This document shows, in pieces, positions 1,507-1,541 of a stretch of DNA of 6,623 bases (position 1 is its first letter; each line of letters starts with the position of its first letter). The stretch comes from a virus. Taxonomy: Duplodnaviria > Heunggongvirae > Uroviricota > Caudoviricetes. The DNA lies in IMG/VR virus record IMGVR_UViG_3300029181_000086. One strand, 5' to 3'. The notes under the pieces are model-generated. The model saw only the letters and a list, made by a program, of their open reading frames with translations. It searched no databases and was not told the DNA's origin. The position numbers were made by a program, and so were the translations under genes.

Positions 1507-1541
1507 GTTCAAACTGTAGTACAATTCTCTCCAGTTTGAAC
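1507..1541 (+). repeat. Perfect 10-bp inverted repeat in the emrE leader
   Basis: GTTCAAACTG (1507-1516) and CAGTTTGAAC (1532-1541) are exact reverse complements with a 15-nt spacer. Ends 1 nt before the AGGAAA SD-like sequence and 15 nt before the emrE ATG. Confidence 0.6.

What the first reader, a model, noticed from the sequence alone, without database searches (positions are those of the whole stretch)
1507..1541. Perfect 10-bp inverted repeat abutting the emrE ribosome-binding site
GTTCAAACTG/CAGTTTGAAC with a 15-nt spacer ends one nucleotide before the emrE SD. As RNA it would form a stable stem-loop in the 5' leader, which could act as an attenuator or stabiliser. As DNA it is a candidate dimeric regulator operator. 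It could also be a boundary structure of the cargo island.
Basis: seen in the sequence. Interest (0 to 1): 0.45.

Follow-up and report, generated by a model that had tools for sequence, protein, structure and literature searches.

The report
Palindrome overlapping the emrE promoter
The perfect 10-bp inverted repeat in front of the drug-efflux gene emrE is real, but it lies across the gene's own weak promoter and short leader, is perfect only in the E. coli prophage copy, and decays in sister species, so it is probably a young by-product rather than a conserved RNA or protein-binding switch.

Summary
The repeat is confirmed: GTTCAAACTG (1507-1516), a 15-nt spacer, CAGTTTGAAC (1532-1541), abutting the AGGAAAG ribosome-binding site of emrE (ATG 1557).

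The window is a DLP12-type lambdoid prophage. emrE is the first module of a low-GC cargo block (1454-5523) between ren and ninB/ybcN. In every context recovered (141 loci) the repeat region travels with emrE, including non-prophage chromosomal loci. It lies 53 nt inside the cargo junction, so it is not a boundary structure.

The spacer holds the best -10-like hexamer of the region, TACAAT, which is conserved across Escherichia. The one published 5' end for emrE (2 reads) maps to 1527, inside the spacer. An IS1 insertion selected for paraquat tolerance sits in the left arm and places an IS1 -35-like hexamer 18 nt from TACAAT. So emrE's own mRNA probably lacks the left arm.

There is no U-tract, no Rfam match and no convincing covariation. 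The E. coli chromosomal allele matches 9/10. In E. whittamii, E. ruysiae and E. albertii the predicted hairpin is no better than shuffled sequence. YbcM ChIP-exo reports no site here.

Best reading: a promoter and leader carrying a young, probably incidental palindrome. A lineage-specific operator is not excluded. Interest is low.

The parts
1507..1516 (+). Left arm GTTCAAACTG. It lies in the spacer between the candidate -35 and -10 of the emrE promoter.
   Evidence: Unchanged in E. coli, E. whittamii, E. ruysiae and E1V33. Natural variants G1507T and A1513T exist and are uncompensated.
1517..1531 (+). 15-nt spacer TAGTACAATTCTCTC, containing the -10-like hexamer.
   Evidence: TGTAGTA(C/G)AAT is invariant or nearly so across Escherichia. 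TAGTAGAAT is present at the same distance from the ATG in Citrobacter murliniae.
1520..1525 (+). Candidate -10 hexamer TACAAT (5/6 to consensus).
   Evidence: best promoter-like combination in 1400-1556 is GTGAGT-16-TACAAT (8/12). Conserved. IS1 insertion geometry points the same way.
1498..1503 (+). Candidate weak -35 hexamer GTGAGT (3/6).
   Evidence: The GGTGA(G/A)T block is nearly invariant across Escherichia.
1527..1527 (+). Published emrE 5' end. This is TSS 567508 in NC_000913.2, with 2 reads and a 30-nt 5' UTR.
   Evidence: Kim et al. 2012, PMC3415461, Table S1. Mapped to the window through emrE = 568315 in NC_000913.3. Weak support: only 2 nt after TACAAT, and a C start.
1532..1541 (+). 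Right arm CAGTTTGAAC. It is initially transcribed or 5'-UTR sequence directly before the SD.
   Evidence: It is the most variable block of the region: CAGTATGAAC (E. coli chromosomal), CGGTATTAAC (whittamii, ruysiae, E1V33), CGGAATTATC (albertii).
1542..1548 (+). Shine-Dalgarno-like AGGAAAG of emrE.
   Evidence: Invariant in the alignment.
1557..1889 (+). emrE (SMR multidrug efflux transporter, 110 aa).
   Evidence: ORF. RefSeq annotation of identical DNA in E. coli genomes.
1510..1518 (.). CAAACTGTA, the 9-bp target duplicated by an IS1 insertion that was fixed in a paraquat-evolved MG1655 line.
   Evidence: Rychel et al., bioRxiv 10.1101/2022.12.20.521246, Note S1 and mutation table: 'IS1 (-) +9 bp, 568268, intergenic (+21/-39)'. 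Coordinates converted.
1454..5523 (+). Low-GC cargo block between ren and ninB/ybcN, made of three modules: emrE (1454/1481-~1896), ybcK (~1897-3979) and ybcL-ybcM (3980-5523).
   Evidence: pairwise blastn with phage PhiR30_1, phage Perceval, the E. coli fliE locus and E. albertii. GC falls from ~50% to 30-40%; left ends of homology.
1920..1960 (+). Terminator-like hairpin GGAGGCUC...GAGCCUC followed by GUUUUAUGCUUUUUG, downstream of emrE.
   Evidence: centroid -13.6 kcal/mol. Missed by the scan because its loop exceeds 8 nt.

Best explanation
The 35-bp repeat lies across the core of emrE's own weak sigma-70-type promoter and its short leader.

Layout:
- The left arm is in the -35/-10 spacer.
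- The 15-nt 'loop' carries the -10 element, TACAAT.
- Transcription starts inside the repeat, at about 1527-1533.
- The right arm is the first ~10-15 nt of the mRNA, directly before the ribosome-binding site.

emrE with this ~76-100-nt upstream block is a self-contained cargo ('moron') module. It is carried in the nin region of lambdoid prophages and is also found at a chromosomal site next to fliE.

The perfect symmetry is a recent state of the E. coli prophage allele. It was reached by three single substitutions in the right arm, starting from a poorly complementary ancestor. I infer that these arose by drift or by quasipalindrome-correcting template switching, and that the repeat is not maintained as an RNA helix or as a two-half-site operator.

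Shown: the anatomy, the junctions, the conservation pattern, the lack of covariation, the position of the IS1 insertion and the published 5' end.

Inferred: that TACAAT is the working -10, that the symmetry itself has little or no function, and how the symmetry arose.
For: 1. Context. The window is DLP12-like. The cargo block is 1454-5523.

2. The repeat belongs to the emrE module.
- All 141 emrE-type loci recovered from genomes, metagenomes and viral contigs keep at least 1481-1556 upstream of emrE. No homology breakpoint falls downstream of 1481.
- About 3,689 of 5,426 complete E. coli genomes have the region. 1,423 have it joined to ren. In sampled rows the rest lack ren. The fliE/ompC-like site is annotated for one genome, JA0266.

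3. Conservation looks like a promoter, not a helix.
- GGTGA(G/A)T, TGTAGTA(C/G)AAT and CAGGAAAGAATATGCTATG are invariant or nearly so across E. coli, E. whittamii, E. ruysiae, E1V33 and E. albertii.
- The right arm and the 3' part of the spacer vary.
- TAGTAGAAT sits at the same distance from the ATG in C. murliniae, which has no repeat.

4. GTGAGT-16-TACAAT is the best consensus match in 1400-1556.

5. The published emrE 5' end is at 1527, inside the spacer.

6. An IS1 insertion selected under paraquat duplicates 1510-1518. Either IS1 end then places TTGGCA or TTGGAG 18 nt upstream of TACAAT. This is the geometry of an IS1 hybrid promoter (Prentki et al. 1986, from my own knowledge).

7. There is no support for a conserved helix.
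- Hairpin energy is -11.9 kcal/mol (prophage allele) and -8.2 (E. coli chromosomal allele).
- In sister species it is -2.1 to -4.9, which equals shuffled sequence.
- Pairs 16-44 and 18-42 are broken in half or more of the distinct sequences.
- Only the albertii lineage shows double changes.
- RNAalifold does not recover the helix, and its covariation term is -0.03.
- Within-E. coli arm variants (G1507T in 11 loci, A1513T in 2, T1536A in 19 loci) are all uncompensated.

8. There is no U-tract or terminator and no Rfam match.
Against: - The promoter is only an 8/12 consensus match, below the 9/12 threshold of the scan.
- The TSS rests on 2 reads. It lies 2 nt after TACAAT, which is too close for that hexamer, and it starts with C.
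- The held Cappable-seq and SMRT-Cappable-seq supplements list nothing here.
- RNAP-holoenzyme SELEX lists peaks in the emrE-ybcK and ybcK-ybcL spacers, not upstream of emrE, and treats renD-emrE as one unit.
- A perfect 10-bp repeat in a specified ~100-nt region is a priori improbable (~0.006), and the window is ten-fold enriched in perfect repeats. That hints such repeats are not all accidental.
- All three derived right-arm changes go towards complementarity. This is partly an ascertainment effect, because the finding was chosen for being perfect.
- The position from about -25 to +10 is exactly where repressors bind.
Confidence: 0.55

Rival explanations
1. DNA operator. A dimeric (or dimer-of-dimers) repressor, encoded by the host or a prophage and specific to the E. 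coli lineage, binds the two 10-bp half-sites that bracket the -10 element. This keeps the emrE moron nearly silent.
For: - Perfect dyad symmetry across about -25 to +10 of the candidate promoter.
- emrE is very weakly expressed (2 TSS reads; no RNAP SELEX peak).
- Gain of emrE expression is strongly selected under paraquat, through amplification or through an IS1 insertion in the left arm.
- A second perfect 10-bp repeat in the same window (5558-5586), just downstream of a putative promoter, was annotated by the phage 82 depositors as a 'possible regulator-binding site'.
Against: - The right half-site differs at 3-5 of 10 positions in sister species, while the left half-site and the promoter blocks are kept.
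- Natural E. coli alleles carry uncompensated half-site changes at appreciable frequency.
- The centre-to-centre distance is 25 bp, about 2.4 helical turns. This places the half-sites on different faces of the helix, which is unusual for simple HTH dimers (established structural knowledge).
- The motif is absent elsewhere in the window.
- With other spacings it occurs only in a handful of unrelated viral contigs, roughly at chance level by my estimate.
- YbcM, the AraC-type regulator of the same island, has 12 ChIP-exo sites and none is at emrE or renD. No other tested candidate TF lists emrE or renD.
- The IS1 insertion keeps 7 of 10 bp of the left arm next to the rest of the repeat, so it does not simply destroy an operator.
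Confidence: 0.2
2. RNA hairpin in read-through transcripts. When emrE is transcribed from upstream (pR through O-P-ren during lytic growth, or IS3/ren read-through in K-12), both arms are in the RNA. The -12 kcal/mol stem-loop next to the SD would then act as a stabiliser or insulator that keeps the ribosome-binding site free.
For: - The isolated hairpin is stable (-11.9 kcal/mol, z -5.2). It is the minimum-free-energy fold of the 61-nt stretch 1500-1560.
- In a 161-nt read-through model the SD is mostly unpaired (0.64-0.97). In an mRNA starting at 1527 the figure is 0.43-0.55.
- renD-emrE is listed as one transcription unit.
- The perfect form is the prophage allele.
Against: - No covariation within E. 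coli, and the helix decays in sister species.
- In an 86-nt context the hairpin is not the minimum-free-energy fold and the fold is unexceptional.
- No U-tract, so it is not an attenuator.
- A 10-bp stem is too short for RNase III (established knowledge).
- The chromosomal, non-phage allele keeps 9/10.
- The mapped 5' end lies inside the repeat.
Confidence: 0.15
3. Boundary or recombination structure of the cargo island. Candidates are an att-like site of the YbcK serine recombinase, an integron attC-like site, or a module-exchange signal.
For: - The repeat lies near the left end of the low-GC block.
- A large serine recombinase gene (ybcK) is in the island.
- SMR genes are common integron cassettes (my own knowledge).
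Against: - The backbone/cargo junction is at 1453/1454, 53 nt upstream.
- Other contexts break at 1456, 1465 or 1481, never at the repeat.
- The ybcK module starts at ~1897, about 355 nt downstream of the repeat.
- The odd spacer puts the symmetry centre on a single base, whereas serine-recombinase sites are symmetric about a central dinucleotide (established knowledge).
- The arms do not fit attC. They match neither RYYYAAC...GTTRRRY nor its orientation (read directly from the sequence).
- Degenerate copies sit upstream of emrE in non-phage loci.
Confidence: 0.03

Closest known systems
Phage 'moron' cassettes: autonomous promoter-gene-terminator units inserted between backbone genes of lambdoid phages
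   Same: emrE with ~76-100 nt of upstream DNA is a lower-GC unit inserted between ren and ninB. It has its own promoter-like block and a terminator-like hairpin downstream, and it is exchanged as a module among phages and chromosomal sites.
   Different: The promoter is weak and only marginally supported experimentally. The terminator-like hairpin lies just outside the segment shared with the chromosomal allele, which ends at ~1896.
Promoter-overlapping palindromic operators (for example lac O1 or LexA boxes; the phage 82 'possible regulator-binding site' repeat = window 5558-5586)
   Same: Dyad symmetry placed over the -10/+1 region of a promoter-like sequence.
   Different: The geometry is 10-N15-10, with half-site centres 25 bp apart. 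One half-site is not conserved. No binder is known. YbcM ChIP-exo is negative here.
5' stem-loop mRNA stabilisers and SD-adjacent hairpins (for example the ompA 5' UTR)
   Same: A stable hairpin directly 5' of a Shine-Dalgarno sequence that leaves it accessible.
   Different: The gene's own transcript appears to start inside the hairpin. There is no covariation. The hairpin would not be at the 5' terminus of read-through RNA.
Guanidine-II (mini-ykkC) and guanidine-I riboswitches upstream of SMR transporter genes
   Same: Hairpin element upstream of an SMR-family gene.
   Different: No Rfam match at E <= 1. It is a single hairpin without the conserved ACGR loop (read from the sequence). EmrE belongs to the drug-exporting branch of the family, not the guanidinium-exporting branch (my own knowledge).
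IS1-generated hybrid promoters (Prentki et al. 1986, recalled from memory)
   Same: In the evolved strain either IS1 end supplies TTGGCA or TTGGAG 18 nt upstream of the resident TACAAT.
   Different: This concerns a laboratory mutant of the locus, not the window itself. The authors saw no transcript-level iModulon signal and guessed at a translational effect.

Membership tests
Intrinsic terminator / transcription attenuator | G+C-rich stem followed directly by a run of U | tested here: not met
   The stem has 4 G-C pairs out of 10. It is followed by AGGAAAGAAUAUGC, with no U-run. The terminator scan found none in 1000-2300.
Known structured RNA families (Rfam 15, including guanidine riboswitches of SMR genes) | Match to a covariance model | tested here: not met
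   cmscan of the whole window, both strands, E <= 1: no match.
Conserved RNA helix | Base pairs kept through compensatory changes among relatives | tested here: not met
   - Only the albertii lineage has double changes, at 2 pairs.
- The central pairs are broken in 6 and 8 of 12 distinct sequences.
- The RNAalifold consensus omits the helix.
- Sister-species hairpin energies equal shuffled sequence.
Sigma-70 promoter | -35 and -10 hexamers with 16-18 bp spacing | tested here: inconclusive
   GTGAGT-16-TACAAT scores 8/12. It is the best match in the region but falls below the 9/12 threshold of the scan. Both blocks are conserved across Escherichia.
Sigma-70 promoter | Mapped transcription start 6-8 nt downstream of the -10 | tested here: inconclusive
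   One published 5' end at 1527 with 2 reads, only 2 nt after TACAAT. Nothing appears in the held Cappable-seq supplements.
Palindromic operator of a dimeric transcription factor | Dyad-symmetric half-sites overlapping the promoter | tested here: met
   Perfect 10-bp arms bracket the -10.
Palindromic operator of a dimeric transcription factor | Both half-sites conserved among orthologous loci | tested here: not met
   The left arm is kept. The right arm differs at 1 (E. coli chromosomal), 3 (whittamii, ruysiae, E1V33) and 5 (albertii) of 10 positions.
Palindromic operator of a dimeric transcription factor | An identified protein that binds the site | not testable with these tools
   The only indirect evidence is that the YbcM ChIP-exo list and the other candidate-TF lists of Gao et al. 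2021 contain no emrE or renD site.
Island boundary / recombinase attachment site | Coincides with the breakpoint of homology between elements with and without the cargo | tested here: not met
   Breakpoints are at 1453/1454, 1456, 1465 and 1481 on the left, and at ~1896, 3711, 3979 and 5523 elsewhere. None falls within 1507-1541.
Integron attC site | Inverse core RYYYAAC at the 5' end and core GTTRRRY at the 3' end of an imperfect palindrome downstream of a cassette ORF | tested here: not met
   Read directly from the sequence. The arms read GTTCAAA...TTTGAAC, which is the wrong order, and they violate the R/Y pattern.
Phage moron | Extra gene unit between conserved backbone genes, absent from related phages, with deviating base composition | tested here: met
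   PhiR30_1 shares 969-1453 and 5524-6623 but carries other cargo. GC drops from ~50% to 30-40%.

The most novel reading that the evidence does not exclude
The perfect palindrome is a recently evolved operator, or a DNA/RNA structural brake, specific to the prophage-borne emrE allele. It would hold a costly efflux pump nearly silent in the lysogen, and be relieved by an as yet unidentified host or phage dimeric regulator or by read-through during induction. That would make it the first described cis-regulatory switch for the model transporter gene emrE.
Probability: 0.15. Interest if true: 0.4.

Novelty: new member of a known kind. Interest (0 to 1): 0.2.

Why it matters
EmrE is the model small multidrug-resistance transporter, yet almost nothing is known about how its gene is controlled. 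This analysis does three things:
- It places the repeat on the gene's own weak promoter and leader.
- It shows that the emrE module always carries this ~76-nt upstream block.
- It links a published adaptive IS1 insertion to the TACAAT element.

The practical consequence is modest. Experiments on emrE expression should target the -10 element and the start site inside the repeat, not a presumed leader hairpin.

If the symmetry did turn out to be an operator, it would identify a silencing mechanism for a prophage-borne resistance gene. The comparative data make that unlikely.

Tried and rejected
- **Rfam search of the whole window:** nothing.
- **Terminator and promoter scan around the repeat:** no terminator, and no promoter at >= 9/12.
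- **TSS tables:**
  - The Cappable-seq (PMC4782308) and SMRT-Cappable-seq (PMC6131387) supplements, as held, contain no entry for 56826x-56830x or emrE. The files may be truncated.
  - Conway 2014 has no held supplement.
  - Thomason 2015 is not held.
- **Literature searches for an emrE promoter, leader or regulator:** no study of the repeat was found.
- **YbcM as the binder:** its ChIP-exo sites do not include emrE.
- **Same half-sites with other spacings in 2.9 million viral contigs:** five contigs in three unrelated sequence families, with no similarity to the window. I judge this to be about chance level, so there is no sign of a regulon motif.
- **In-frame upstream TTG at 1503 as an N-terminal extension or leader peptide:** rejected, because E. 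albertii has a 1-nt insertion in the SD region that breaks the frame.
- **attC and serine-recombinase att readings:** rejected on sequence pattern, symmetry and position.
- **Constrained helix energies from eval_structure:** these include non-canonical pairs and I did not use them.

Full report
**Observation.** The sequence at 1507-1541 is GTTCAAACTG-TAGTACAATTCTCTC-CAGTTTGAAC. The arms are perfect 10-nt reverse complements with a 15-nt spacer, and the repeat cannot be extended. The purine run AGGAAAG follows at 1542 and the emrE ATG is at 1557.
- In 1000 dinucleotide-preserving shuffles of the window, perfect repeats with arms >= 10 and a loop of 3-40 occur 0.38 times on average, and 24% of shuffles have at least one.
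- The window has four such repeats (1507, 2391, 3869, 5558). One such repeat is therefore not extraordinary by itself. Its position in a short regulatory stretch, and the overall excess, are beyond simple chance.
- The isolated 35-mer folds at -11.9 kcal/mol (z -5.2).
- In an 86-nt context the minimum-free-energy fold is a different structure and is unexceptional (z -0.68).

**Context.** The window is a DLP12-type lambdoid prophage segment. The gene order is a P fragment and ren (1187-1489), emrE (1557-1889), ybcK (2144-3670, large serine recombinase), ybcL, ybcM, ybcN/ninB, ninE and ybcO.

Pairwise comparisons define the structure:
- The phage backbone is 969-1453 and 5524-6623. It is shared with phage PhiR30_1, which carries other cargo.
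- The cargo block is 1454-5523, and its GC content drops from ~50% to 30-40%.
- The cargo is modular. Phage Perceval shares 969-3711 (emrE plus ybcK) and then differs.
- Many E. coli chromosomes carry emrE-ybcL-ybcM without ybcK and without ren at ~91% identity, matching 1481-1896 and 3980-5700. In the one genome I inspected (JA0266) the cassette lies between fliE and an ompC-like gene.
- E. albertii matches 1456-1890 and 4037-5598.
- E. whittamii and E. ruysiae match from 1465.

Of 5,426 complete E. coli genomes, 3,689 have the emrE upstream region and 1,423 have it joined to ren. In 141 emrE-type loci gathered from genomes, metagenomes and viral contigs, the left end of homology is at 1481 or further upstream. 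The repeat is therefore part of the emrE module. It lies 53 nt inside the prophage junction and is not a boundary structure.

**What is conserved.** Twelve distinct versions of the 65-nt stretch before the ATG were aligned.
- Invariant or nearly invariant blocks: GGTGA(G/A)T (1497-1503), TGTAGTA(C/G)AAT (1515-1525) and CAGGAAAGAATATGCTATG.
- The left arm is identical in E. coli, whittamii, ruysiae and E1V33.
- The right arm is the most variable piece: CAGTTTGAAC (prophage), CAGTATGAAC (E. coli chromosomal), CGGTATTAAC (whittamii, ruysiae, E1V33) and CGGAATTATC (albertii).
- Citrobacter murliniae (86% EmrE identity) has no repeat but keeps TAGTAGAAT at the same distance from the ATG.

This is the pattern of a promoter (-35, -10), a variable initially transcribed region and a ribosome-binding site. 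GTGAGT-16-TACAAT is the best consensus match in 1400-1556, at 8/12.

**Tests of the RNA-helix reading.**
- Pair counts show 85% of cells paired, but the structure was derived from one of the sequences.
- The central pairs are broken in 6 and 8 of 12 distinct sequences.
- The only double changes belong to the single albertii lineage.
- RNAalifold does not recover the helix, and its covariation term is -0.03.
- Predicted hairpin energies:

| Allele | Energy (kcal/mol) |
|---|---|
| Prophage allele | -11.9 |
| E. coli chromosomal allele | -8.2 |
| E1V33 | -4.9 |
| E. ruysiae | -3.9 |
| E. whittamii | -2.3 |
| E. albertii | -2.1 |

- The last four values are within the range of shuffled sequences.
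- Within E. coli, arm polymorphisms are all uncompensated and no rarer than flank polymorphisms: G1507T in 11 loci, A1513T in 2, T1536A in 19 (17 chromosomal-type, plus L184 and L099).
- There is no U-tract or terminator and no Rfam match.
- In a read-through RNA model the hairpin leaves the SD mostly unpaired, so it would not sequester the ribosome-binding site.

**Experimental evidence from the literature.**
- Kim et al. 2012 (PMC3415461, Table S1) list one emrE start at 567508 (NC_000913.2). It has 2 reads, a 30-nt 5' UTR, and a -50..+1 sequence ending ...GTAGTACAATTC. With emrE at 568315 in NC_000913.3, this is window 1527, inside the spacer. The evidence is weak: it meets only the minimum read count, it starts with C, and it lies only 2 nt after TACAAT.
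- Rychel et al. (bioRxiv 10.1101/2022.12.20.521246) report that a paraquat-evolved line lacking the emrE amplification fixed 'IS1 (-) +9 bp' at 568268, intergenic (+21/-39). The duplicated target is window 1510-1518 (CAAACTGTA), within the left arm.
- I read the IS1A ends from MG1655. Either end places TTGGCA or TTGGAG exactly 18 nt upstream of TACAAT. This fits a hybrid promoter, a known property of IS1 (recalled from memory), and argues that TACAAT can serve as a -10.
- The insertion keeps 7 bp of the left arm next to the rest of the repeat. It therefore neither destroys a hairpin nor cleanly removes an operator.
- RNAP-holoenzyme SELEX lists no peak upstream of emrE and treats renD-emrE as one unit. 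This is consistent with a weak promoter.

**Operator reading.** The position is appropriate, and a second perfect repeat (5558-5586) was annotated as a 'possible regulator-binding site' in phage 82. Several results count against it:
- One half-site is not conserved.
- The half-site centres are 25 bp apart.
- The motif is not found elsewhere in the window.
- With other spacings it occurs only in a few unrelated viral contigs.
- YbcM has 12 ChIP-exo sites. The strongest (570015-570048) converts to about window 4034-4067 upstream of ybcL, assuming NC_000913.2 coordinates. None is at emrE.

**Conclusion.** The repeat is real. It overlaps the core promoter and short leader of the emrE moron.
- Its perfection is a recent feature of the E. 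coli prophage allele. Relative to the other Escherichia species, three right-arm substitutions (G to A at 1533, T to G at 1538, A to T at 1536) each increased complementarity to an unchanged left arm.
- This is what ascertainment predicts for any perfect repeat. It is also the signature of quasipalindrome-correcting template switching (established mutational mechanism; inference here).
- I rate an incidental, promoter-embedded palindrome at about 0.55, a lineage-specific operator at about 0.2, a functional hairpin in read-through RNA at about 0.15, and a boundary or recombination site at about 0.03.
- I found no prior description of this repeat in the literature I could search. Its kind (a promoter-overlapping palindrome in a moron) is familiar, and the interest is low.

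Noticed in passing
window 3869-3918: The longest perfect inverted repeat of the window: AAAATACGTGACA, 24 nt, TGTCACGTATTTT (13-bp arms, RNA -17 kcal/mol, z -4.9). It lies in the ybcK-ybcL intergenic region, inside the ybcK module and ~60 nt before the point (3980) where homology to the ybcK-less chromosomal cassette resumes. It could be a ybcK-module terminator, an operator or a recombinase site.
   Followed up: partly
window 5558-5586 (and 5590-5616): Perfect 10-bp repeat GTCACCGGAG-N9-CTCCGGTGAC (-17.1 kcal/mol) in phage backbone, 34 nt after the cargo/backbone junction and just downstream of a putative promoter. In the phage 82 record X92588 the same repeat is annotated 'possible regulator-binding site'. 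A second hairpin follows directly, and neither has a U-tract.
   Followed up: partly
window 2391-2414: Perfect 10-bp inverted repeat TTGAAAGTCT-GGAC-AGACTTTCAA inside the ybcK coding sequence. Together with the others it makes four perfect >= 10-bp repeats, against 0.38 expected.
   Followed up: no
window 1481-1896 + 3980-5700; L001 6001-8143: Many E. coli genomes carry emrE-ybcL-ybcM without ybcK and without ren at ~91% identity. These are the roughly 2,270 genomes whose match to 1440-1620 covers less than 80%. In the one genome inspected (JA0266) the cassette lies between fliE and an ompC-like gene. Its right end (5524-5700) overlaps DNA that is phage backbone in PhiR30_1, which suggests the chromosomal cassette is a relic of a lambdoid prophage rather than the phage's donor.
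   Followed up: partly
window ~1897-3979: The ybcK large serine recombinase sits on a ~2.1-kb very AT-rich module inserted between emrE and ybcL relative to the chromosomal cassette. Phage Perceval shares only 969-3711 and then carries an alpha/beta hydrolase instead of ybcL-ybcM. The ends of this module were not examined for att-like sites.
   Followed up: no
window ~4034-4067: The strongest published YbcM ChIP-exo peak (570015-570048, S/N 357) converts to this position ~70-100 nt upstream of ybcL, assuming NC_000913.2 coordinates. It lies in the ybcLM module, not at any of the perfect repeats.
   Followed up: partly
window 1454-1489: The backbone/cargo junction lies inside the ren reading frame. 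The last ~12 codons and the stop codon of this 100-aa Ren are encoded by cargo DNA, and they differ from the Ren C-terminus of phages with other cargo, such as PhiR30_1.
   Followed up: partly
L010, L012-L014, L016 (Citrobacter and Kluyvera SMR paralogues, ~75% identical to EmrE), ~65 nt upstream of the start codon: Their upstream regions contain the same 9-mer GTTCAAACT, followed 13 nt later by TGTGATACGAT. That element resembles the window's TGTAGTACAAT. This may reflect a homologous promoter in which TTCAAA served as the -35, before a ~13-nt deletion in the Escherichia lineage brought it next to the -10. It may also be coincidence.
   Followed up: no
window 969: Homology to intact lambdoid phages switches at ~969. 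Positions 1-968 match the early-left region (DksA-like zinc-finger, DUF1317 and DUF1382 genes) and 969 onward matches P-ren. The immunity and replication region is therefore deleted, as in DLP12. Unlike MG1655, this window has no IS3 in ren.
   Followed up: partly
window 1920-1960: A terminator-like hairpin with a U-rich tail lies downstream of emrE. The scan missed it because its loop is 12 nt. It overlaps the start of the small annotated ORF ylcJ (1937-2086), and it lies outside the segment shared with the chromosomal emrE allele.
   Followed up: partly
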